A stretch of 53,850 bases of DNA. Source: Bacilli bacterium (GTDB taxonomy: Bacteria > Bacillota_I > Bacilli_A > RF39 > UBA660). Where the stretch lies: assembly GCA_028699175.1 (NCBI GenBank), contig JAQVVC010000001.1:1-53850 (forward strand), read 5' to 3'. The translations under genes and the position numbers were made by a program. Shown here piece by piece: positions 44,091 to 53,850 of the stretch. The notes below the pieces were generated by a model. The model was not told where the DNA came from, did not search any database, and was given only the letters and a program-made list of their open reading frames with translations. Position 1 is the first letter of the stretch. Every line of letters starts with the position of its first letter.

Positions 44091-45065
44091 ATGTTGAAAA
44101 CAGAAAATTATTATGAAAAGTCCTTTACTGATTTAGCAAAGTTATATTATGATAAATTTCAAATTCCATTTCCTATTTCATTATTAAAAGCAGTTGAAAA
44201 TAAAGAAATAAAAACTAAAATAATAAATTGCTTAATTTCTGGTGAATTATATAATTATTATGATGATAGAAAATTCCGTATAAATAAAATAAATAATAAA
44301 ATTGATTATGTTGAATTGATAAATTTAATAAAACAAAGCATGGATGAAATAGGATATGATTATCAAAAAATGATTAATGATATTAATTCTGTAGTTAATC
44401 TTAGACTTAATGGAAAAACATTTTCTTTTGAAGAACATTTAGAGGCACTAGTACTTGCTCAATTGAGCAATCATCGATGGGGCGATGAAACAATAATTAG
44501 AAACAGAGAAAATTTAAGATATATTTTTAAATTTTACAATAGAGAATATTTAAAAAAAATCGATCCCGAAGTTTTAACTAAAGAAGTAATAAATATAAAT
44601 TGTGGTAATGCTTCAATATATAGACAAATGAAAGCATTAAGTTATAATATAACAATACTAGAAAAAATTGAAAAAGATTATGAACACTTAGATTGTTTTG
44701 TTGCATCAGCTGAACCGAATACAATAGCCAATATATTGTATGATGGTAAATATAAACTAAATCAAGTAGGAAAAGCTTTTGCATTAGATTATTTAAAAAA
44801 AGTTGGAATAAACACTTGTAAATCGGATTCACAAATAACTAGATTATTTGGTTCTAATAGATTATCTTTAGTCAATAATCATATAGCTACAGCTTTAGAA
44901 ACTATGTCAATAATAAAAAAAATAACAAACGATCCATTAATTTCTGAAATAGAAGTTAATTCTTTGTTGTGGCAATTTTGTTTGCCAAGAGGTGCAAATA
45001 TATGTACTAAAAATCCAAATTGTTATTTATGTAAATTAAATCATTTGTGTAATTATAACAATTAG
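44091..45065 (+). CDS. HhH-GPD / endonuclease III-like superfamily protein
   Basis: HhH-like LNQVGKAFALDYLKKVG followed by KSDSQITRLFG. C-terminal Fe-S-type Cys cluster CTKNPNCYLCKLNHLC (C-x5-C-x2-C-x5-C, against x6 in EndoIII). Confidence 0.5.
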   Translation: MLKTENYYEKSFTDLAKLYYDKFQIPFPISLLKAVENKEIKTKIINCLISGELYNYYDDRKFRINKINNKIDYVELINLIKQSMDEIGYDYQKMINDINSVVNLRLNGKTFSFEEHLEALVLAQLSNHRWGDETIIRNRENLRYIFKFYNREYLKKIDPEVLTKEVININCGNASIYRQMKALSYNITILEKIEKDYEHLDCFVASAEPNTIANILYDGKYKLNQVGKAFALDYLKKVGINTCKSDSQITRLFGSNRLSLVNNHIATALETMSIIKKITNDPLISEIEVNSLLWQFCLPRGANICTKNPNCYLCKLNHLCNYNN

Positions 45066-45143: not shown

Positions 45144-45707
45144 ATGAAAAATAAAGAAACTGTTATTAATTTCAATGAAATTAAATTTGAAACAGAGAGA
45201 TTAATTATTAGAAGAATTAAAAAAGAAGATTGGCAAGACTATAATGAAATTATGGGAAACGAATTAACTATGAATTTTTTAGGACGTGCTAATACTTTAG
45301 AAGAAGTTAAAGGTTATGTGGAAAATCAAAGTAATCAAGATTATAATAACTTAAGTGGAAATTATGCTATCGTTTTAAAAGAAGAAAACAAAGTAATAGG
45401 TCAATTTGGATTAGAAATTAATACTAAACATTCAAAAGCTTCGATTAGTTATCTATTTAATAGTAAGTACTGGAATAAAGGGTATGCAATAGAGTGTGCT
45501 AAATTTATGGTGGATTATGCTTTTAATGAAATTAATTTAAATAGAATAGAAGCAGATTGTGTAAAAGAAAATGAAGCATCCTTAAAAATATTTAAGAAAT
45601 TAAATATGAATTTTGAGGGGGAATTTAAAGAATCTCGTTATAATAAAAGACTAAACAAATTTTTTGATGTAGTATATTATGCGATATTAAGAAGCGACTA
45701 TAAATGA
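45144..45707 (+). CDS. GNAT family N-acetyltransferase (RimJ/RimL-like)
   Basis: ETERLIIRRIKKEDWQDY..., YWNKGYAIE and NRIEADCVKENEASLKIFKKLNM. Confidence 0.8.
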   Translation: MKNKETVINFNEIKFETERLIIRRIKKEDWQDYNEIMGNELTMNFLGRANTLEEVKGYVENQSNQDYNNLSGNYAIVLKEENKVIGQFGLEINTKHSKASISYLFNSKYWNKGYAIECAKFMVDYAFNEINLNRIEADCVKENEASLKIFKKLNMNFEGEFKESRYNKRLNKFFDVVYYAILRSDYK

Positions 45708-45817: not shown

Positions 45818-47393
45818 GTTAGTGTAAAGAGTTTTTGGGATTTTTAGAAGGATTCATTAAAAATATAATTGTATTTTAAAATTAATAACGAAAGTTGTTA
45901 ATTTTTTAGTATTTATAAGATAAAGCAATTGTTGGTAACTTTGGAAGTTTTGGTTTAGTATCTTTATGATACATATCAAAGATACTATAATTAATATTTT
46001 CTAAATCAATAATAATTTGTTCTTTATTATTGTGGTTGTTTAAATATAATTTTTTTAAATTGTAATTATTTTTATATAACATACGATGTTCCATTAGTTT
46101 GTCTATCATTTTTAAAGAATAAGCTTTAGGCCTTGAAGTAAATAGATCAGCTATATTATGCGAAATATTAGATTCCATACAACATCTTAAGTTATTGTTA
46201 TAAGAATTAAGAATGTATTGCCAATTATTAAGAATATATGTTTCCTTTTCCAAGATGGTTTTTTGTCGATGAGGATAACTTATTATTAAATTAGTGCACA
46301 GTTCTTTAAAAGTTTGTTTATCATCATTTAAAATATAGGTAGTAGCGTTATATTCTAAAAGTTCATTTTGACATATGTGATGCAGTGCCTGTTTGAAATG
46401 GAATTTATCAAGTCCAAAAATAACATTGGTATTAGTGGTAAATTTAAAATAATTTTTAATATTTTTAATCCATCCAGCACCATCACCCATATAATATATA
46501 TTTTTAATTTTATCTGTATTATATACTTTGTATATGTAATCTAGAACATTATCAACAATAGAACCACTATAGTTAGAAAATATCATTTTATTAATTAGTT
46601 TAATTCGATTACCATCATTGTTGATTTTATCGAAAACTACAATTGACTTTATAATTGCATCTTTCTTATTATTGCGTTGGGTATGAATAAATTTTTCATC
46701 AGCCATGATGTAGATACTATCTACATCATTAATCGGTTCACATTTAGGAATTGGCATAACGCTTTTTAGAATGATATTACGTACTATTTGCCTAGATAAT
46801 AAACAATCCTTTGATAAGTTTATTCTATTACCAATCATTTCAGAAATAAGACTACCGGTCTTTTGAAATGAATATTTAGTAGAATAATCAATCACCAATG
46901 CTTTAATGTAAGGATCAAAATAATCGTACTTATTAAGACCTAGAAACCAATCTAAATAACAAAATGAGCCTTTATTATGCTTGTCTGAATAGAATGTTCT
47001 TTTAAATGTTATTTCTCCAAAGATGGTCATAAGTGATCTTGTATGATGGGCTTTAATATGATACTTTCTTTTCCTGTCATAAGAGTTTCGATATCCTCTG
47101 TCTATGGCTTCAAATATAGTTATTAAGCTTTCTTTAGCAATTTTACATAAAGACTTGTCCAGTGATGAAAGAAGATTAATATAATTGAATACAGTGGGAT
47201 TGCTATCTATTTTATTCAATTCTTGTTCAAGGTTATTAGAAAAGTTTGAAATAATCATATTTTTTAATACATTTATATAATTGTTTGGTATAATATTCAT
47301 ATGGAAGACCTCCTAAAATATTGTTTTACAATTATATTTTAACATGAAGGTCTTCCTTTTGTATGTGTAATCCCAAAACTATTTTACACAATC
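45818..47393 (-). mobile_element. 1576-bp insertion sequence with imperfect terminal inverted repeats and 8-bp target-site duplication
   Basis: Left end GTTAGTGTAAAGAGTTTTTGGGATT. The reverse complement of the right end is GATTGTGTAAAATAGTTTTGGGATT. AACTGTAT is duplicated at 45810-45817 and 47394-47401. Confidence 0.85.
45906..47300 (-). CDS. IS transposase (possibly ISLre2/UPF0236-like)
   Basis: 464-aa single ORF filling the IS, with SD GGAGG upstream on the minus strand. The family guess rests on size and Firmicute context only. Confidence 0.7.
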   Translation of the reverse strand: MNIIPNNYINVLKNMIISNFSNNLEQELNKIDSNPTVFNYINLLSSLDKSLCKIAKESLITIFEAIDRGYRNSYDRKRKYHIKAHHTRSLMTIFGEITFKRTFYSDKHNKGSFCYLDWFLGLNKYDYFDPYIKALVIDYSTKYSFQKTGSLISEMIGNRINLSKDCLLSRQIVRNIILKSVMPIPKCEPINDVDSIYIMADEKFIHTQRNNKKDAIIKSIVVFDKINNDGNRIKLINKMIFSNYSGSIVDNVLDYIYKVYNTDKIKNIYYMGDGAGWIKNIKNYFKFTTNTNVIFGLDKFHFKQALHHICQNELLEYNATTYILNDDKQTFKELCTNLIISYPHRQKTILEKETYILNNWQYILNSYNNNLRCCMESNISHNIADLFTSRPKAYSLKMIDKLMEHRMLYKNNYNLKKLYLNNHNNKEQIIIDLENINYSIFDMYHKDTKPKLPKLPTIALSYKY

Positions 47394-47409
47394 AACTGTA
47401 TAAAGAGTA

Positions 47410-47438
47410 TTGACAAATATCCAAAAAACAGTTATCAT
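47410..47438 (+). promoter_or_regulatory. sigma-A type promoter of the peptide-modification cluster
   Basis: TTGACA (47410-15), 17-nt spacer, TATCAT (47433-38). Lies 9 bp from the IS target duplication. Confidence 0.6.
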
Positions 47439-47446
47439 ATCACTAA

Positions 47447-47521
47447 ATTTGGGAGTTGTCCCCAAATCTAATGATACAACAAGAAGTTATTGGGGATTCT
47501 AATTTTAGAATCTCCTTTTTT
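47447..47521 (+). promoter_or_regulatory. leader with three mutually exclusive hairpins ending in an intrinsic terminator (attenuator candidate)
   Basis: tttggg (47448-53) / cccaaa (47461-66). ccccaa (47460-65) / ttgggg (47490-95). Terminator ggggattcta (47492-501) / tagaatctcc (47506-15) plus T-run. Confidence 0.5.
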
Positions 47522-47568
47522 AAAAAAAAGATAAAATATATAAGTTTATAAATTTATAGGGGGAATTT

Positions 47569-49569
47569 ATGGAACAAGAAAAAATTACAGTAGTAATACC
47601 AATGTATAATAGTAAAGATTATATAGAACGTTGTTTAAACTCGATTTGTAATCAAACTTATAAAAATTTAGAAATAATAGTTATTGATGACGGAAGCCAA
47701 GATAAAAGTAAAAGTATAGTAGAGGAATTTCAGCAAAAAGATTCTAGAATAAAATATTTTTATCAAGAAAATCAAGGACCTGGTGTAGCGAGAAATGTCG
47801 GAATAGAAAAAGGAACTGGAAAATATATTTCGTTTATTGATAGTGATGATGAAATAAGAGAAAACTTTTTTGAAATTTTATCTAACACAATACAAGAAAA
47901 TGATAGTTTTGCATTAACTGGTGGATATATGATTTTTCCTGATGGTACATTTCAAAAATCATTTTTAACAAATGAAACTGAAACAAGAAATTTTAAAGTA
48001 CCTATATCTTGTAATAAACTATTTAATTTTGAATTAATAAGAGAAAAAAATTTAAGATTTAAAAGTTTATATTATGCTGAAGACATAGACTTCTGGGGCA
48101 GACTTTTAATGATAAATGATAAGTTTTCTATAGCAAATGATTATTTATATTTGTGTTATTTTAGAGAAGATTCTTTAACAAGAAGTTATACCGAAAAAGA
48201 TACTATTTATCAAATTTTTCAAGTTATTTCAAATATAGAAGATAGTGCAAAAATAAACAATAAGTATGAAAGTTTAAAAGAAAACTTTGAATTCTTGAAT
48301 ATAAAAGAAGTTTTAATTAGAGCAATGAAACAAATTAGTCAGCTTTCAGATTTTGGAGAATATGATGTTATTAAAATGTTATCATATGTCGAAGATAAAT
48401 ATCCTAATTGGTATTACAATAAATACATAAAATTATCATTTGATAAATACAGAAAAAAGAGACTAGAGCTATTGTTTAAAAAAGACTATAAGGGGATAAT
48501 CAATTATCTTCGCCAAATGAATTCAGGTCATGTAATAAAAACAGATGAAGAAATGCTTGCAGAAAACATAGTAGATCATTCTATTTCAGTTGAAAAAGAT
48601 CAAATAATTCAAATAAGATATAAAAGCACAGAATGTAATCCTTTAGTAGTCCAATTAATCAGAGAAATACAAAATCGAGGAGCGGTAGCTATTCCCAGAT
48701 TACAAGATTTAGACTTAGAAAGAGTCGCAAGGGAAACCTATGATAGTGCAGCTATGCAACAGTTAGCTGAAATAATTACCAAAGAAGCAGATTTTTATAG
48801 TTCATATATATCTATAGGTTATAGTGAAAATGATTATGATTTTTCAAGAAATAATGAAAATCCTGCTTTTAGATTGTTGATTAGTTATTTAACTGAATAT
48901 AACAAAATTGTAAGAAGCAAAAAAAGTGTTAGTGTATTTTATCCGTCTCCATTAGATGCACATAAAGCAAAAATGACTACCGAAGATTATAAAAAATATG
49001 CATTTTCGATTATGAATTATGATTATAAAAGTTTAAAAGTAAAGATGGAGCATTTAAAAGAAATGATGGATAAAACATCTCAAGTAGCAATAATAGGTAA
49101 AGATACAGACTTAACTTTTTCAAAAAAAGATATTCCATCTATTATTTTATCTGGAGAAGTAAATATCCCCGATGGAGAAGTTTATACATCTCCTATAAAA
49201 GATAGTGTAAATGGAACTATAAGGTTTAATGTTGCTACTAAATATATGGGCAATATATTTGAAAGTATATTATTAGAATTTAAAAATGGGAAAGTCGTAG
49301 ATTTTGATTGTAGTGACCCTAATGAATTAAGAAATATATTGGATATAGATAAAGGAAGTAGATTTATAGGTGAGTTTGCATTAGGAGTCCATCCACTTAT
49401 ATTATATCCAATAATTAATACATTGCATGATGAAAAAATTTATGGAAGTTTTCATTTAGCATTAGGTCAAGCATATAGAAATGCTTATAATGGAAATGAC
49501 TCAAATGTGCATTGGGATTTAATAAATATTCAAAGAGATGATTTTGATACAGGCAAAATTTTTCTTTGA
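47569..49569 (+). CDS. fusion protein: family-2 glycosyltransferase (N-terminal) plus M29 (AmpS/PepS-type) aminopeptidase (C-terminal); the 3' tail is frameshifted
   Basis: GT2: ITVVIPMYNSKDYIERCLNSICNQTYKNLEIIVIDDGSQD and IDSDDE. M29: NIPDGEVYTSP, GEFALG, HLALG and NVHWDL. The conserved tail FFDDILIRENGEFV... continues in another frame at 49562-49666. Confidence 0.75.
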   Translation: MEQEKITVVIPMYNSKDYIERCLNSICNQTYKNLEIIVIDDGSQDKSKSIVEEFQQKDSRIKYFYQENQGPGVARNVGIEKGTGKYISFIDSDDEIRENFFEILSNTIQENDSFALTGGYMIFPDGTFQKSFLTNETETRNFKVPISCNKLFNFELIREKNLRFKSLYYAEDIDFWGRLLMINDKFSIANDYLYLCYFREDSLTRSYTEKDTIYQIFQVISNIEDSAKINNKYESLKENFEFLNIKEVLIRAMKQISQLSDFGEYDVIKMLSYVEDKYPNWYYNKYIKLSFDKYRKKRLELLFKKDYKGIINYLRQMNSGHVIKTDEEMLAENIVDHSISVEKDQIIQIRYKSTECNPLVVQLIREIQNRGAVAIPRLQDLDLERVARETYDSAAMQQLAEIITKEADFYSSYISIGYSENDYDFSRNNENPAFRLLISYLTEYNKIVRSKKSVSVFYPSPLDAHKAKMTTEDYKKYAFSIMNYDYKSLKVKMEHLKEMMDKTSQVAIIGKDTDLTFSKKDIPSIILSGEVNIPDGEVYTSPIKDSVNGTIRFNVATKYMGNIFESILLEFKNGKVVDFDCSDPNELRNILDIDKGSRFIGEFALGVHPLILYPIINTLHDEKIYGSFHLALGQAYRNAYNGNDSNVHWDLINIQRDDFDTGKIFL

Positions 49570-49667
49570 TGATATTTTAATTCGAGAAAACGGAGAATTT
49601 GTTCCTGATAATTTAAAAACTCTAAATGATGAACGAGCAAGAATATTAACAAAAAGGAGAAGATAGT

Positions 49668-50774
49668 ATGGAAAGAGTGCCGTCACTAATTGTTTTAAAT
49701 CTCACATCTGACTGCAATTTAAGATGTAAATATTGTTACGCTTCGGCTGGGACATTTAAAGAATATATGACATCTGAATGTGCGATAGAAATAATAAGAC
49801 AAGTAGCAAAATACAACAATACAATTGAATTGTTATTTCATGGAGGAGAACCGTTATTGGTCTTTGATGTAATCAAAGAGGTCATAGATTATTGTAAAAA
49901 CAATCTGAAAAGTAAAGAAATAAGATATTATATACAGACTAATGGAGTGTTATTAACTGCAGAAAAAGCCAAGTATTTGATAGATGAAAACGTAGAAATC
50001 TGTTTGAGTATTGATGGACATACTGAAACAAGTAATCAATGCAGAATTTATCCTGCTGGGCAATCAAGTTTAAAAATGTTGAAAAATCGAATTGATTTAT
50101 TAAAAAGTATGAATTATAATACAACTGTTTTAGCAGTATTAAATAAGAAAAATAAGAACGAAATAGAAGATTTTATAGATTTTTTAATAAATAATAAAAT
50201 ATTTAATTTTTCTTTAAATTATTTTATAAAAGGAGGAAGAGGGAATGAAAACAGTGATCTCGCTTTAAGCCCTGTAGAGTTATATGAAGTAACAAAGAAT
50301 GTAATATCAAAGATTTTGAGCTATCACGAAAAAAACATAAAAGTAGTTGAAAGAAATATTTCTCATCTTTTAAGGAACATATTTACAGAAAAAAAAGGCT
50401 ATATGTGTATGAATAGCCCGTGTGGTGCTGGGAACCATTTATTAGGATATACACCAAATGGTGATATATATCCCTGCGATGATTTAAGTTCTGTTGAGCA
50501 ATTTAAAATAGGTAATATTTTTGATGGAGATATTAAAGATATATTAAAAGATAACGATGTAATTAATTTTTTTAATTATTGTTCTTATGAAAATATTCCT
50601 AAATGTTGTGATTGTAAAATTAAAAATAAATGTGGTGCTGGATGTGCTTCGAGAAAATTTTATGAAAATGGGACAATCTATGAAGTGGATCCAATTTGTG
50701 AATTTTATAAATTAATAGTACCATATATTGAAAATTTAATGATCGAAAACCCATCAATAAAGGAATTAGTATAA
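49668..50774 (+). CDS. radical SAM enzyme with SPASM domain (peptide maturase 1)
   Basis: CNLRCKYCYA (CxxxCxxC), FHGGEPLL, and auxiliary-cluster cysteines YMCMNSPCGAG, YPCD and CCDCKIKNKCGAGCASR. Confidence 0.85.
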   Translation: MERVPSLIVLNLTSDCNLRCKYCYASAGTFKEYMTSECAIEIIRQVAKYNNTIELLFHGGEPLLVFDVIKEVIDYCKNNLKSKEIRYYIQTNGVLLTAEKAKYLIDENVEICLSIDGHTETSNQCRIYPAGQSSLKMLKNRIDLLKSMNYNTTVLAVLNKKNKNEIEDFIDFLINNKIFNFSLNYFIKGGRGNENSDLALSPVELYEVTKNVISKILSYHEKNIKVVERNISHLLRNIFTEKKGYMCMNSPCGAGNHLLGYTPNGDIYPCDDLSSVEQFKIGNIFDGDIKDILKDNDVINFFNYCSYENIPKCCDCKIKNKCGAGCASRKFYENGTIYEVDPICEFYKLIVPYIENLMIENPSIKELV

Positions 50775-50775
50775 A

Positions 50776-51462
50776 ATGAAAACTACAGTAATTAGAAGAA
50801 TAATGAAAAATCAAACTAACATAATTAACAACTTGTTAAAAAACAACAACAAAATAATTTTTATAAAATCTATACCTCAAACAGGAAAATCAACAATATT
50901 AAAAAAATTATTTGATATGAATCATGAAGAGATAAAATTATTTATAACTGGATGTGATCCTAAAAACATGTCTTTAATTAATGATGAAATATTAGCAGAA
51001 ATTGAAAGTTGTCTAATCAAAAATAAAGAAAAAAATATTACGATTTATTTTGATGAATATTATAATGATGAAATATTATATTATTTGCAAACTAATAAAC
51101 ACAAAAATATAAAGGTATTTATAACTACAAACAAAATAATAAAAAAAATGAATTTTAATTATGGAATAATAGATATATATAAAGATATTTTTAACGAAAT
51201 AGATAAATATATGCTTGAAGAATATAATATTAATATTGAGGACAAATTATCAAAAAGAAAAATATCGGTAACTGAATTGATTAAAATAGCAGGTTGGCTT
51301 GATAAAAACGCTAATTTAAATTACAATATTAATGAAATTTTAAATATATTGAAAGATGAATTAGATGAATTAGAAAAAGCTAGATTTTTACCAACAACAA
51401 CAGCAATATTATGTATACATAAATATTTTAGAACTTTTAAAACGTTTGATTTTGAAGATTAG
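50776..51462 (+). CDS. small P-loop-like protein of unknown function
   Basis: Deviant Walker A SIPQTGKSTILKKL and Walker B-like ITIYFDEYY. Abuts the upstream stop. Confidence 0.5.
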   Translation: MKTTVIRRIMKNQTNIINNLLKNNNKIIFIKSIPQTGKSTILKKLFDMNHEEIKLFITGCDPKNMSLINDEILAEIESCLIKNKEKNITIYFDEYYNDEILYYLQTNKHKNIKVFITTNKIIKKMNFNYGIIDIYKDIFNEIDKYMLEEYNINIEDKLSKRKISVTELIKIAGWLDKNANLNYNINEILNILKDELDELEKARFLPTTTAILCIHKYFRTFKTFDFED

Positions 51463-51477
51463 TAAGGAGATTTTATT

Positions 51478-52785
51478 ATGGATTTATCACTTATAGTAGA
51501 AAAAGGAATAGACATTTTGATTAATAAAAACACAGGGAAATGGATAGCTATAAAAAATAATGAAGAACAAGATTTAAAAATTATAAAAAAAATCAGCCGA
51601 GAATTATTAATAGATAAATTCGGGAACAAATTTGGTACATATTTATGGAGCAAAAGAATTGAAATGTCAGAAAAAATTGAAGACAAGTTTTGTCATCAAA
51701 TGAATTGCTTAGTTATAAATGTTACTGATAGCTGTAATTTAAAATGCCAATATTGTTATGCTAACAATGAAAATAAAATTAAAATGATTGATTCTGAAAC
51801 CATAATTAAAGCCGTAGAAAAATTTTCTGAAAGAATATATCCAAATAATTTAACTGTTATTTTTCATGGTGGAGAGCCTTTGCTTGCTTTTGAAAAAATT
51901 AAAGAAGCAGTAGAGAATCTTAAACATATTAAAAATGTCGTTTACTCTTTACAAACGAACGGAACTTTACTAACTCAGGAAAAATTAATTTTTTTCAAAA
52001 AAAATAAATTTTTAATAGGGTTAAGTATAGATGGAATCAGTGATGAAAACAATTCACTAAGAAATATAGACGGAAAGATAAAAGATTATACAAATAAAAA
52101 TTTGGAAATTCTAAAAAATAATAAATCATTTGTAAAGCCTCTTATTGTAGTACATAAAAAAAATATTAACAATATAAAAGAAATAGTAAACTTTTTTAAA
52201 AATAATGATTTCGATGGACTCGTATGTAACTTATTGTTTGAACCAGAAAATTTTGACAATTGTGTTTTAGATGATTCATTATTTGATAACATGAGATATA
52301 TTCTTGATTTAATGATGGAAAATTATGATGGAGAAAATTTTGCGTTTTCTGAACGAGACATCAGATTGTTATTTAGAAAAGTAATATATGGATTTATAGA
52401 TGAATATATGTGTATGAATAGTCCATGTGGTGCAGGAAAAGAAACAGTTGCAGTAGACTACAAAGGGGATGTATGGGCTTGCAATGTTTTGATTTCAAAA
52501 ACAGAAAAGGATAACTACATGGGCAATATATTTGAAAATTCAATTAATGAAATTTTAAGTAAAGAAGTAAAAATTTCCAAAAGAAATATTGATTCAATTC
52601 CTATATGTAATGAGTGTCCATATAAAAAATTATGTGGTGGTGGTGGATGTTGTGGTTTTGTTACTAATCAAAGAAATAATTTGAAAGATAAAAGTATATA
52701 TTGTGACTACCATTTTAAGCTTATAACATATATGATAGATAGTGTTATGAGATATTACGAAAGTGATATTATAACAAATTTTTAA
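51478..52785 (+). CDS. radical SAM enzyme with SPASM domain and ~75-aa N-terminal extension (peptide maturase 2, possible RRE)
   Basis: CNLKCQYCYA, FHGGEPLL, YMCMNSPCGAG, WACN and CNECPYKKLCGGGGCCGF. A paralogue of the enzyme at 49668-50774. Confidence 0.85.
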   Translation: MDLSLIVEKGIDILINKNTGKWIAIKNNEEQDLKIIKKISRELLIDKFGNKFGTYLWSKRIEMSEKIEDKFCHQMNCLVINVTDSCNLKCQYCYANNENKIKMIDSETIIKAVEKFSERIYPNNLTVIFHGGEPLLAFEKIKEAVENLKHIKNVVYSLQTNGTLLTQEKLIFFKKNKFLIGLSIDGISDENNSLRNIDGKIKDYTNKNLEILKNNKSFVKPLIVVHKKNINNIKEIVNFFKNNDFDGLVCNLLFEPENFDNCVLDDSLFDNMRYILDLMMENYDGENFAFSERDIRLLFRKVIYGFIDEYMCMNSPCGAGKETVAVDYKGDVWACNVLISKTEKDNYMGNIFENSINEILSKEVKISKRNIDSIPICNECPYKKLCGGGGCCGFVTNQRNNLKDKSIYCDYHFKLITYMIDSVMRYYESDIITNF

Positions 52786-52800
52786 AGGAGGTGAAAAATA

Positions 52801-52923
52801 ATGACTAAGGACAAAAAATATGATGCAATCATGAAGAAATTAGCTACAAAAAGAGCAAAAGTAAATGTACCTACTTATGACAGTAAGGTAATGATGGCTC
52901 ATTGGAGCAATGGTTACAATTAA
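52801..52923 (+). CDS. 40-aa candidate RiPP precursor peptide (not in the ORF track)
   Basis: ATG 52801 lies about 9 nt after AAAGGAGGTG. MTKDKKYDAIMKKLATKRAKVNVPTYDSKVMMAHWSNGYN, TAA at 52921-23, with a terminator immediately after. No Cys; Lys-rich N-terminal half and aromatic C-terminus. Confidence 0.65.
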   Translation: MTKDKKYDAIMKKLATKRAKVNVPTYDSKVMMAHWSNGYN

Positions 52924-52924
52924 G

Positions 52925-52952
52925 AAAAAAGCTACTAATTGTAGCTTTTTTT
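52925..52952 (+). terminator. intrinsic terminator after the precursor gene
   Basis: aaaaaagctac-taatt-gtagctttttt. Confidence 0.75.
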
Positions 52953-52976
52953 GTATATTGTTTGTGGTTAATATGT

Positions 52977-53402
52977 TTATAAATCACAAATTTTTTCAAT
53001 TGAGATATTAAATTTTTTAGCAATTAAGAGTATATATTTTGTTAGAATTAGTACCTTACCATTTAGAAAAGCAGAAATTGTTGATTGTGTTGTATTCAAT
53101 TGCTTAGCTAATTTAATTTGTGTTAAATTATTATCATTGCATATTTTTTTTATGTTTTTACCTATTATAATTTTATCAAGTTCTTTAATTTGATTTTTAT
53201 TTTGAATAGGAGATAAGCCAGCTAAATAATCCATTGAGATATTATAAAACTTTGCTAATAAAAGTAATTTCTTTAGTGGTATTGTTTCTAGTCCGTTTTC
53301 CCATTTACTATAATTCGCTTGTTGAGTATTTATAATATTAGCAATATATTCTTGTGTATAATTATTTTTAATCCTTATCGCTTTTAATCTTTTAAAGTTC
53401 AT
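52977..53402 (-). CDS. XRE-family regulator with two tandem HTH domains
   Basis: Two Cro/C1-type units: LKAIRIKNNYTQEYIANIINTQQANYSKWENG and NIKKICNDNNLTQIKLAKQLNTTQSTISAFLNG. Confidence 0.8.
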   Translation of the reverse strand: MNFKRLKAIRIKNNYTQEYIANIINTQQANYSKWENGLETIPLKKLLLLAKFYNISMDYLAGLSPIQNKNQIKELDKIIIGKNIKKICNDNNLTQIKLAKQLNTTQSTISAFLNGKVLILTKYILLIAKKFNISIEKICDL

Positions 53403-53416
53403 ATAATTATACCTCT

Positions 53417-53850
53417 TTACTTATTATAAGTGTAATCAAATTTTCCTAATACTCCATCAATAGAAAAATTATATTTTACTGCTAATATATACAATTTATC
53501 TAATTTTATTTGAGTTTTCCCATTTTCATAGGCAGCATAGGATGACTGTTTAATCTTTAAATCTTCTGCTAAATTTTCTTGTGATAATCTATTATATCTT
53601 CTTATCTTTCTAATTTGTTTGCCTAAATCATCAAAATTAGCTGATAGAGGATTGATCATATATCTTTTATTATTAGTGATTCCAGTTAAATAATCTATAC
53701 TTAAATTATAATAGTCTGATAATTTTTCGATAATTGGAAGTGGAAAAGATACTATACCATTTTCCATAGCAGTATATATTCCTCTTTTTATTCCCAAAAT
53801 TTCAGATATTTCTTTTTGTGTTAAATCCAAGTCTTCTCTTGTAAATTTTA
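53417..53850 (-). CDS. second XRE-family regulator with two HTH domains (5' end probably outside the window)
   Basis: LTQKEISEILGIKRGIYTAMENG and IRKIRRYNRLSQENLAEDLKIKQSSYAAYENG. The frame stays open to the window edge (KFTREDLDLTQ...), so the track's TTG start is doubtful. Confidence 0.7.
   Translation of the reverse strand, partial: KFTREDLDLTQKEISEILGIKRGIYTAMENGIVSFPLPIIEKLSDYYNLSIDYLTGITNNKRYMINPLSANFDDLGKQIRKIRRYNRLSQENLAEDLKIKQSSYAAYENGKTQIKLDKLYILAVKYNFSIDGVLGKFDYTYNK

What the first reader, a model, noticed from the sequence alone, without database searches (positions are those of the whole stretch)
52801..52923. Unannotated 40-aa ORF ending in AHWSNGYN is the likely substrate
The ORF is below the track's size cut-off. 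It has the best SD in the cluster (AAAGGAGGTG) and is followed directly by a terminator. The sequence is MTKDKKYDAIMKKLATKRAKVNVPTYDSKVMMAHWSNGYN, with a basic, helical-looking leader and a short C-terminal core containing His, Trp and Tyr plus Ser, Asn and Gly. Aromatic-x-x triplets such as W-S-N, and the overall W/S/N/H/Y composition, are reminiscent of rSAM-cross-linked cores (darobactin WNWSKSF, dynobactin, triceptide motifs, all from memory). This exact sequence is not one I recognise. Two maturases and two aromatic-centred sites (HWSN and GYN) would fit one cross-link each.
Basis: partly seen in the sequence, partly recalled or inferred. Interest (0 to 1): 0.6.

Follow-up and report, generated by a model that had tools for sequence, protein, structure and literature searches.

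The report
Precursor peptide of new radical-SAM pathway
The 40-codon gene is real: it encodes the conserved substrate peptide of a previously undescribed family of enzyme-modified bacterial peptides, found in anaerobic-digester and gut bacteria, whose chemistry and purpose are still unknown.

Summary
The ORF at 52801-52923 is exactly as described: the 40-aa sequence, by far the strongest Shine-Dalgarno site of the operon, and a terminator directly behind it. It is not a chance ORF. A small ORF carrying the same ungapped 14-residue block, P-x-(Y/F)-(D/N)-x-x-x-Φ-M-x-H-W-(S/T)-(N/D), lies in the cluster of every related radical-SAM (rSAM) enzyme I could retrieve, down to 28-37% enzyme identity. 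It occurs as one, two or three tandem copies. About 20 families of such peptides exist among 1.8 billion representative proteins. None is named, no Pfam or NCBIfam model hits them, and no searchable paper prints the motif.

The core is under purifying selection: only synonymous changes, while the leader varies. The conserved partners are two orthologous rSAM/SPASM enzymes (one with an RRE-like N-domain), an AAA+-like P-loop protein, a glycosyltransferase (GT2 here; GT9 plus ADP-heptose genes elsewhere), an M29 aminopeptidase and a GNAT.

Its second site, GYN, is specific to this subfamily. The family-wide candidates are H34, W35, S36, N37 and Y26. The cross-link chemistry is inferred, not shown. 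I rate it a new variant of rSAM-modified RiPPs, of moderate to high interest.

The parts
52801..52923 (+). Precursor peptide gene (40 aa, Cys-free): variable basic N-terminal part (residues 1-23), conserved block P24-N37, subfamily-specific tail G38-Y39-N40
   Evidence: homologues; codon analysis
52870..52911 (+). Codons for the family-wide 14-residue block PTYDSKVMMAHWSN. P24, M32, H34 and W35 are invariant; Y26 is Y/F, D27 mostly D/N, S36 S/T, N37 mostly N/D
   Evidence: Alignment A2; census of 35 core units; further members
52785..52794 (+). Shine-Dalgarno site AAAGGAGGTG, the strongest in the operon; conserved in L001 and L006
52924..52952 (.). Intrinsic-terminator-like hairpin plus T-run. 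It scores on both strands and is shared with the convergent regulator gene
51478..52785 (+). rSAM/SPASM maturase r2 (435 aa) with an N-terminal RRE-like domain of about 64 residues (three to four strands, two helices). CxxxCxxC at C86/C90/C93; SPASM cysteines invariant
50776..51462 (+). P-loop NTPase (228 aa) with an AAA+-like fold: Walker A GK[ST], Walker B DE, invariant GC.P motif. Present in every related cluster whose full gene set was retrieved
49668..50774 (+). rSAM/SPASM maturase r1 (368 aa), a paralogue of r2 (33% identity) without the N-terminal domain. It forms its own orthologous clade across clusters
   Evidence: (P0021)
47569..49666 (+). GT2 glycosyltransferase fused to an M29 aminopeptidase. 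In the window the ORF stops at 49569 because of one extra base in a T-run. Without base 49559, as in two public runs, it gives 698 aa matching the L001 orthologue
47410..47515 (+). Best promoter-like site of the region (47410-47438, 11 of 12 matches), followed by a terminator-like hairpin (47492-47515) ahead of the first gene. Possibly a regulatory leader
   Evidence: no Rfam match
45144..45707 (+). GNAT (Acetyltransf_3, RimJ/RimL type), separated from the operon by an IS. It is 72% identical to the GNAT of the L001 cluster, and a GNAT is also present in the L004, L007, L009, L095 and L096 clusters
52977..53830 (-). Two convergent XRE-type regulators, each with two HTH units. Candidate regulators; the association was not tested

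Best explanation
The ORF encodes the precursor (substrate) peptide of an undescribed family of ribosomally made, radical-SAM-modified peptides (RiPPs).

Shown:
- The peptide and its 14-residue block P-x-(Y/F)-(D/N)-x3-Φ-M-x-H-W-(S/T)-(N/D) are co-conserved with two orthologous rSAM/SPASM enzymes and an AAA+-like P-loop protein.
- Most clusters also carry a glycosyltransferase, an M29 aminopeptidase and a GNAT.
- The core evolves under purifying selection.
- The gene has the operon's strongest ribosome-binding site and its own terminator.

Inferred mechanism:
1. r2 binds the peptide through its RRE-like N-domain. The bound part is probably the Φ-P-x-Y-D segment, because multi-core relatives have almost no leader.
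2. r1 and r2 each install one radical-mediated side-chain modification in the invariant H-W-(S/T)-(N/D) tetrad. The most likely products are three-residue cyclophane-type links: Trp ring to Cβ of Asn/Asp, and His to Cβ of Ser/Thr. A link involving Y/F26 or M32 is the alternative.
3. The M29 aminopeptidase trims the N-terminus up to the modified residues. Here the core sits at the extreme C-terminus and no endoprotease is encoded. Multi-core relatives add a transglutaminase-like protease.
4. The fused GT2 adds a sugar. Relatives use a GT9 with cluster-encoded ADP-heptose synthesis.
5. The GNAT may acetylate the new N-terminus or protect the producer.

The role of the P-loop ATPase is unknown.
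For: - Small ORFs with the same block lie directly after r2 in L001 (r2 68% identical), L006 (82%), L004/L005 (37%), L007/L008 (35%), L009/L010 (34%) and L095/L096. They lie a few genes away in L011, L012 and L013 (28-31%).
- Cores occur one, two or three times per peptide. 35 core units give 19 unique 15-mers with P, M, H and W invariant.
- Window against L006 and L001: the 12 C-terminal codons carry 2 and 3 synonymous changes and 0 non-synonymous. The 28 codons before them carry 7 synonymous and 10 non-synonymous changes against L006.
- The motif is absent from 80 unrelated rSAM loci.
- An exhaustive profile search of 1.84 billion representatives gives 23 hits, about 20 of them genuine short peptides.
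- The tree resolves two orthologous rSAM clades, r1 (support 96/92) and r2 (91/90). Each holds one member per cluster, except that L013 lacks r1.
- The r2 model has an N-terminal β-β-β-α-α domain at pLDDT about 90. Its best fold matches are the peptide maturases anSME, CteB, SuiB, TigE and ChlB.
- The P-loop family is conserved.
- L095 carries the whole set in one operon: transglutaminase-like protein, r1, P-loop, r2, precursor, GT9, GNAT, M29, HldE, GmhA, GmhB.
- SD and terminator.
- In a metatranscriptome, one of the two substantial contigs matching the cluster covers exactly 52768-52942.
- W-x-N, H-x-x and Y-D-R three-residue cyclophanes are known rSAM products (PMC11499958; bioRxiv 10.1101/2024.12.16.628070).
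Against: - No chemistry was observed, so the type and position of the modifications are inference only.
- Both rSAMs score far below every curated family cut-off, so no reaction type can be transferred from a known family.
- Overlapping H-W-S and W-S-N rings would be strained.
- In one relative the residue two after the Y/F is Gly, so a three-residue ring there cannot be general.
- The window's and L001's clusters show no exporter, although the window ends 0.9 kb downstream.
- In this assembly the GT2-M29 gene carries a frameshift, and an IS sits just upstream of the promoter.
- The RNA evidence is one 200-nt contig of a close relative, at depth about 3.
Confidence: 0.85

Rival explanations
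1. The peptide is the substrate, but the end product is a small peptide-derived molecule that stays in the cell, such as a cofactor or redox-active compound in the manner of mycofactocin or PQQ, rather than a secreted bioactive peptide.
For: The window and L001 clusters carry no transporter. An exopeptidase fused to a GT2 suggests trimming to a very small core followed by glycosylation. That is the logic of mycofactocin: rSAM MftC, peptidase MftE, GT2 MftF (PMC7491314, listed). The GT2 domain gives a weak MftF hit of 60 bits.
Against: MftC and MftF scores are far below their cut-offs (87 against 265 bits; 60 against 280 bits). Precursors with two or three cores, ABC exporters (L004, L007, L012) and agr/LytTR quorum-sensing genes next to relatives fit a secreted product better. 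No partner oxidoreductases are present.
Confidence: 0.1
2. The cluster is a relative of the His-Xaa-Ser (HXS) anti-phage system. The rSAM pair would mature an H-x-S-containing effector for defence, not a natural product.
For: The best NCBIfam hit of r1 is HxsB, which is also the second-best hit of r2 (171 and 140 bits). The invariant core contains His-Trp-Ser/Thr. L011 and L013 add an HxsC-like third rSAM (96 bits). The P-loop proteins give faint STAND/Avs-type hits. In HXS, HxsB and HxsC modify an SHRSS motif (PMC13128918).
Against: All scores are far below the cut-offs (370 and 268 bits). PapB, CbpB and DynA score about as well. [quoted passage not shown] PADLOC gives only generic viperin-type rSAM hits. 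The glycosyltransferase, aminopeptidase, GNAT and exporter are typical tailoring genes of natural-product clusters.
Confidence: 0.04
3. The small ORF is conserved but is not the enzymes' substrate. It could instead be an immunity, regulatory or signalling peptide of the cluster.
For: No direct enzyme-substrate evidence exists. Adjacent XRE regulators (window) and agr-like genes (L004) show that peptide signalling occurs near these clusters.
Against: No other conserved small ORF exists in the clusters. The position right after an RRE-bearing rSAM, the tandem duplication of the core unit and an invariant aromatic-rich block are the classic signature of a RiPP precursor.
Confidence: 0.04
4. It is a chance ORF in AT-rich DNA with a fortuitous SD-like sequence.
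For: Many ORFs of 30-60 codons occur by chance in this region.
Against: The protein sequence is conserved across clusters whose enzymes share only 28-37% identity. The core shows only synonymous substitutions. The motif gives zero matches in about 1 Mb of control loci.
Confidence: 0.01

Closest known systems
Triceptides and xenorceptides: three-residue cyclophane RiPPs made by rSAM/SPASM '3-CyFE' enzymes such as YhhB, HaaB, HtkB, ChlB, XncB/SmcB and OscB
   Same: Both have a short precursor with conserved aromatic-X-X motifs, often repeated. Both use an rSAM/SPASM maturase. W-x-N (WVN), H-x-x (HAA, HNR, HTK) and Y-D-R motifs are known substrates (PMC11499958; bioRxiv 10.1101/2024.12.16.628070). 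ChlB is among the best sequence and fold matches of r2.
   Different: Both enzymes score far below the cut-offs of the YhhB, GrrM/OscB, FxsB and AmcB models. Two paralogous maturases are always paired. A dedicated AAA+-like P-loop protein, a glycosyltransferase, an M29 aminopeptidase and a GNAT are conserved partners. The conserved block is 14 residues with an invariant Met and Pro. No cross-link has been observed.
CteB/PapB-type sactipeptide and ranthipeptide maturases, and SuiB (streptide)
   Same: The architecture matches: N-terminal RRE-like domain, rSAM barrel and SPASM domain. CteB is the best PDB sequence match for both r1 and r2. CteB and SuiB fold alignments span the whole length of r2.
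   Different: The window's peptide has no Cys, as do 15 of the 25 family members compiled, so thioether chemistry is excluded. No conserved Lys precedes the Trp, so a streptide-type Lys-Trp link is unlikely.
Darobactin and dynobactin (DarE and DynA)
   Same: The core is Trp-containing and Ser/Asn-rich, with rSAM/SPASM enzymes. DynA is among the top NCBIfam hits.
   Different: DynA scores 138-161 bits against a cut-off of 450. There is one Trp only and two enzymes instead of one. The producers are Gram-positive Bacilli-type or gut bacteria. Glycosylation and trimming genes are present.
His-Xaa-Ser (HXS) anti-phage system (HxsA-D)
   Same: Both have paired rSAM enzymes, a His-x-Ser/Thr element in the target and HxsB/HxsC-like best hits.
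   Different: Scores are below the cut-offs. [quoted passage not shown] The targets here are 26-77-aa peptides with a different, longer motif.
Mycofactocin pathway (MftA-F)
   Same: The gene logic is similar: an rSAM acts on the C-terminal end of a small peptide, followed by a peptidase and a GT2 glycosyltransferase (PMC7491314).
   Different: There is no Val-Tyr C-terminus, and MftC/MftF scores are below the cut-offs. There is no MftD/MftB equivalent or partner dehydrogenase. Multi-core precursors and exporters occur in relatives.

Membership tests
rSAM/SPASM-dependent RiPP system (generic kind) | Radical SAM CxxxCxxC cluster motif in the maturase | tested here: met
   PF04055 hits for both enzymes. 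C86, C90 and C93 are invariant in the 11 r2 homologues.
rSAM/SPASM-dependent RiPP system (generic kind) | SPASM auxiliary-cluster domain | tested here: met
   PF13186 hits. C312, C317, C335, C377, C380, C386, C391 and C409 are invariant.
rSAM/SPASM-dependent RiPP system (generic kind) | Small precursor gene co-conserved with the maturase | tested here: met
rSAM/SPASM-dependent RiPP system (generic kind) | Peptide-recognition (RRE) domain | tested here: inconclusive
   r2 has a confident N-terminal domain (residues 1-64) of three to four strands and two helices. The profile alignment to CteB starts within CteB's N-terminal region, and the CteB and SuiB fold alignments span the full length. There is no Pfam PqqD hit. 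r1 lacks the domain.
rSAM/SPASM-dependent RiPP system (generic kind) | Enzyme-dependent covalent modification of the peptide | not testable with these tools
   Needs co-expression and mass spectrometry.
Triceptides (three-residue cyclophanes) | Conserved aromatic-X-X motif in the precursor | tested here: met
   H-W-(S/T) and W-(S/T)-(N/D) are conserved in all core units. (Y/F)-(D/N)-x is present, but its third residue varies and is Gly in L012.
Triceptides (three-residue cyclophanes) | Maturase belongs to a curated cyclophane-synthase family (YhhB, GrrM/OscB, FxsB, AmcB) | tested here: not met
   YhhB 111 bits against 445; GrrM/OscB 86-97 against 310; FxsB 72 against 370; AmcB 91-102 against 425.
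Triceptides (three-residue cyclophanes) | Cross-link between an aromatic ring and Cβ | not testable with these tools
   Needs MS/MS and NMR.
Darobactin/dynobactin | DarE/DynA-family maturase | tested here: not met
   NF041298 DynA scores 161 and 138 bits against a cut-off of 450.
Darobactin/dynobactin | Core with the ring-forming Trp/Lys pattern (darobactin-type C-terminal 5-mer W-T/S-K/R-S-F, as quoted in bioRxiv 10.1101/2024.12.16.628070) | tested here: not met
   The conserved block has a single Trp and no conserved Lys or second aromatic residue after it.
Sactipeptides/ranthipeptides | Cys donors in the core | tested here: not met
   The window's peptide has no Cys, and 15 of 25 relatives have none.
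Sactipeptides/ranthipeptides | PapB/SCIFF-type maturase above the cut-off | tested here: not met
   PapB 167 and 138 bits against 340; SCIFF 143 and 85 against 425.
His-Xaa-Ser (HXS) system | HxsB and HxsC equivalogs | tested here: not met
   HxsB 171 and 140 bits against 370. The HxsC-like protein of L011 scores 96 against 268. The window has no HxsC-like gene.
His-Xaa-Ser (HXS) system | HxsA repeat effector and HxsD partner | tested here: not met
   No cluster protein or peptide hit the HxsA or HxsD models in NCBIfam.
Mycofactocin | MftC and MftF equivalogs and a C-terminal Val-Tyr precursor | tested here: not met
   MftC 87 bits against 265; MftF 60 against 280. The C-terminus is ...SNGYN.

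The most novel reading that the evidence does not exclude
This is a new RiPP class. A Cys-free His-Trp core is modified by two co-evolving rSAM/SPASM enzymes with the help of a dedicated mini AAA+-like ATPase. It is then trimmed by an M29 aminopeptidase and glycosylated: with heptose from cluster-encoded ADP-heptose in the gut relatives, and with a GT2-delivered sugar here. It may also be N-acetylated. To my knowledge a heptosylated, rSAM-cross-linked peptide and an AAA+-type accessory factor in RiPP maturation would both be without precedent.
Probability: 0.5. Interest if true: 0.72.

Novelty: new variant of a known kind. Interest (0 to 1): 0.6.

Why it matters
The result turns an unannotated 123-bp ORF into a defined, testable substrate for two uncharacterised radical-SAM enzymes. 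It also gives a family-wide motif that says which residues to mutate: H34, W35, S36, N37, Y26 and M32, but not Y39.

The conserved gene set points to chemistry that has not been described together in a RiPP. It combines paired rSAMs, an AAA+-like ATPase, a glycosyltransferase (with ADP-heptose supply in gut relatives), an M29 aminopeptidase and a GNAT. The producers are uncultured bacteria of anaerobic digesters and of human and animal guts.

If the product is bioactive, as an antibiotic or a signal, it would be a new scaffold. If not, the pathway still offers new enzyme reactions on His and Trp.

Tried and rejected
I could therefore not look for extra precursor copies in the window's own genome, and no taxon-ordered survey was possible.
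- The single genome-contig scan with the r2 alignment was swamped by generic rSAM patterns. All 80 loci were at most about 32% identical and none carried the motif. It served only as a negative control.
- Literature searches for the motif strings (MMHWS, MHWSN, AHWSN, HWSNGYN, MVHWTN and others) gave no relevant paper. Searches for rSAM RiPPs combined with heptosyltransferase, ADP-heptose or M29 also gave none. Subscription-only papers and supplements were not searched.
- Pfam and NCBIfam gave no model for the peptides.
- PADLOC gave only generic viperin-type rSAM hits.
- Rfam found nothing in 47300-53100.
- Run X1 is labelled RNA-Seq but has a METAGENOMIC source. It showed flat depth over one 5.8-kb contig, so I treated it as DNA.
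- The fold search of the P-loop protein gave only low-TM AAA+ matches (TM 0.33-0.44), enough for the fold class but not for a function.
- The 324-aa ORF upstream (44091-45065) is unrelated to the HD protein of the L001 cluster.
- I considered and rejected thioether, Lys-Trp, darobactin-type and mycofactocin-type assignments (see the membership tests).

Full report
**Observation**

ATG 52801 to TAA 52923 translates to MTKDKKYDAIMKKLATKRAKVNVPTYDSKVMMAHWSNGYN. AAAGGAGGTG lies at 52785-52794. Its predicted pairing to a Firmicute-type anti-SD tail is -17.9 kcal/mol, against -6.0 to -9.3 kcal/mol for the four upstream genes. So the claim of the best SD in the cluster holds. A 12-bp hairpin (52924-52952, -13.3 kcal/mol) with a T-run begins right after the stop codon.

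The genes upstream on the same strand are:
- a GT2 glycosyltransferase fused to an M29 aminopeptidase (47569-49569);
- an rSAM/SPASM protein of 368 aa, called r1 here (49668-50774);
- a 228-aa P-loop protein (50776-51462);
- a second rSAM/SPASM protein of 435 aa, called r2 here (51478-52785).

Both rSAMs score 140-170 bits with the HxsB, PapB, CbpB and DynA models. That is far below every curated cut-off, so they belong to no named family.

**Is it more than chance?**

A 40-codon ORF means little in this AT-rich DNA, since one search lists dozens. A search with r2 found close and distant relatives. I fetched their contigs.
- In L001 (r2 68% identical) a 42-aa ORF directly after r2 ends ...VPTYNSKVMMAHWSNGYN.
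- In L006 (82%) a 40-aa ORF ends ...VPSYNSKVMMAHWSNGYN.
- In L004/L005 (37%) the ORF after r2 has three tandem units of LPRYDERAIMMHWSNTSN. L007/L008 (35%) has two. L009/L010 (34%) has two of LPKYDENSIMMHWSDTS.
- In L011, L012 and L013 (28-31%) the cluster still holds a small ORF with IPEFDDEALMVHWTN... or VPNFDGTSLMSHWTN..., though not directly after r2.

All of these align without gaps over 14 residues: P-x-(Y/F)-(D/N)-x-x-x-Φ-M-x-H-W-(S/T)-(N/D).

Across 25 distinct peptides there are 35 core units, giving 19 unique 15-mers. P, M, H and W are invariant. The other positions read Y16/F3, D16/N3, S16/T3 and N18/D1.

A word-indexed profile search of 5.8 billion proteins gave 23 hits. An exhaustive HMMER search of 1.84 billion representatives also gave 23, of which about 20 are genuine short peptides and 3 are repetitive false positives. 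New members include a 26-aa peptide, MKKVDKIEVPKYDEASVMMHWTNTGP, and two window-like variants...AAMAHWSNGFN and ...KTMSHWSNGYN.

As a control, the motif occurs once in the 53.8-kb window. It never occurs in the six-frame translation of 80 unrelated rSAM loci, roughly 1 Mb.

At the codon level, window against L006 shows 2 synonymous and 0 non-synonymous changes in the last 12 codons, and 7 synonymous and 10 non-synonymous changes in the first 28. Window against L001 shows 3 synonymous and 0 non-synonymous changes in the last 12 codons. The frame is therefore under purifying selection for the C-terminal protein sequence. The SD is conserved too.

**The surrounding system**

A maximum-likelihood tree of all rSAM/SPASM proteins from these clusters gives two orthologous clades. 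One is r1 (365-379 aa, support 96/92) and the other is r2 (430-443 aa, support 91/90). Each holds one member from each cluster, except that L013 lacks r1. The pair is thus old and co-inherited with the peptide.

The r2 model (pLDDT 82) has a confident N-terminal domain of three to four strands and two helices, residues 1-64. This resembles the peptide-binding RRE domains of CteB and SuiB. The best sequence and fold matches are the peptide and protein maturases anSME, CteB, SuiB, TigE and ChlB. r1 starts at the rSAM barrel and lacks this domain.

The P-loop protein has homologues in the clusters examined. They share Walker A GK[ST], Walker B DE and an invariant GC.P motif. Its model (pLDDT 85) matches AAA+ ATPases such as TRIP13, Mpa, NSF and the Rpt subunits, but only loosely, at TM 0.33-0.44.

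The fullest operon is L095: transglutaminase-like protein, r1, P-loop, r2, precursor, GT9, GNAT, M29 aminopeptidase, HldE, GmhA, GmhB. A glycosyltransferase, an M29 peptidase and a GNAT therefore belong to the pathway. The gut-type relatives make their own ADP-heptose donor. The window and L001 instead fuse a GT2 to the M29 domain and have no heptose genes.

The window's GNAT (45144-45707) is separated from the operon by an IS. It is nevertheless 72% identical to the GNAT of L001, more than r2 is.

Clusters whose peptide has one core at the extreme C-terminus (window, L001) lack the transglutaminase-like protease. Multi-core clusters have it. This fits exopeptidase trimming here and endoproteolysis between repeats elsewhere.

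**Expression**

The organism is common in biogas-reactor, wastewater and landfill metagenomes. A run labelled RNA-Seq but with a metagenomic source showed flat depth, so I treat it as DNA. In one true metatranscriptome, only two substantial contigs match the cluster. One of them, 200 nt at depth about 3, covers exactly 52768-52942, that is the SD, the ORF and the terminator of an L006-like allele. This is weak but consistent evidence that the precursor gene is transcribed more strongly than the enzyme genes.

**Mechanism: what is shown and what is inferred**

Shown: the co-conservation, the selection on the core, the translation signals, and the enzyme architecture.

Inferred:
- r2 docks on the peptide. 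The docking site is probably the Φ-P-x-Y-D segment, because multi-core relatives begin MKK-LPKYDE with practically no leader.
- The two rSAMs each modify the invariant H-W-(S/T)-(N/D) tetrad.
- M29 then trims, the GT glycosylates, and the GNAT acetylates or protects the producer.

The most economical chemistry is three-residue cyclophane formation. W-x-N (WVN), H-x-x (HAA, HNR, HTK) and Y-D-R rings are established rSAM products (PMC11499958; bioRxiv 10.1101/2024.12.16.628070). Here the third residues, S/T and N/D, are conserved exactly as such a mechanism needs. A three-residue ring starting at Y/F26 cannot be general, because its third residue varies and is Gly in L012. Thioether chemistry is excluded, because the peptide has no Cys.

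It cannot be the target of an enzyme shared by the whole family.

**Comparison with known systems**

The membership tests all fail on the enzyme side. Triceptide synthase models, DynA, PapB/SCIFF, HxsB/HxsC and MftC/MftF all score far below their cut-offs.

The HXS anti-phage system deserves mention, because the core literally contains His-Xaa-Ser/Thr and the best enzyme hits are HxsB/HxsC-like. In that system HxsB and HxsC put a +8 Da modification on an SHRSS motif (PMC13128918). However, no HxsA or HxsD is present, the targets here are small peptides, and the tailoring genes are those of a natural-product pathway.

No Pfam or NCBIfam model, no source annotation and no searchable paper covers the peptide family.

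**Verdict**

The interpretation as substrate is supported. The assignment of sites is revised. This is a new, small family of rSAM-modified peptides with an unusual accessory set, so a new variant of a known kind. The chemistry and biological role remain open.

Noticed in passing
window 49554-49569: The GT2-M29 ORF is cut short (666 aa) by one extra base in a T-run. Contigs of two independent public runs lack base 49559 and have A>G at 49557. Without that base the product is 698 aa, and its tail matches the 698-aa L001 orthologue, ending 2 nt before the r1 start codon. This is either an assembly error or a strain-level frameshift.
   Followed up: yes
window 45906-47300 (-), IS about 45818-47401: An ISLre2/UPF0236-family transposase sits between the cluster-associated GNAT and the operon's promoter. 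Public-run contigs break exactly at 47394, which fits a repeated or variably present IS.
   Followed up: partly
window 47410-47515: The best promoter-like site of the region is followed by overlapping hairpins and a terminator-like stem with a T-run, about 50 nt before the first gene. It is a possible attenuator. No Rfam family matches.
   Followed up: partly
window 52977-53830 (-): Two adjacent XRE-type proteins, each with two HTH units, converge on the precursor's terminator. Relatives carry different regulators instead (agr/LytTR).
   Followed up: no
L004 3861-4606 and 1189-3209: An agr-like quorum-sensing set lies next to the multi-core cluster: a 59-aa AgrD-like ORF overlapping the start of AgrB, plus a histidine kinase and a LytTR regulator. 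L013 also has a LytTR two-component pair.
   Followed up: partly
L012 3130-7851 and 15823-16794: The most divergent cluster sits among a serine recombinase, ArdA and a viral-type Rep gene. L001 places the cluster beside the S10 ribosomal operon. The cluster is therefore not syntenic and is probably mobile.
   Followed up: no
L011 10497-11426; L013 9699-10694: The distant clusters add a third rSAM, HxsC-like and without a SPASM domain (96 bits against TIGR03977, below the cut-off), and two ABC ATPase genes. L013 lacks r1.
   Followed up: partly
window 52931 and 52944: Two public populations each carry a different G>A change in the terminator stem, while the precursor ORF itself is identical in both.
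   Followed up: no
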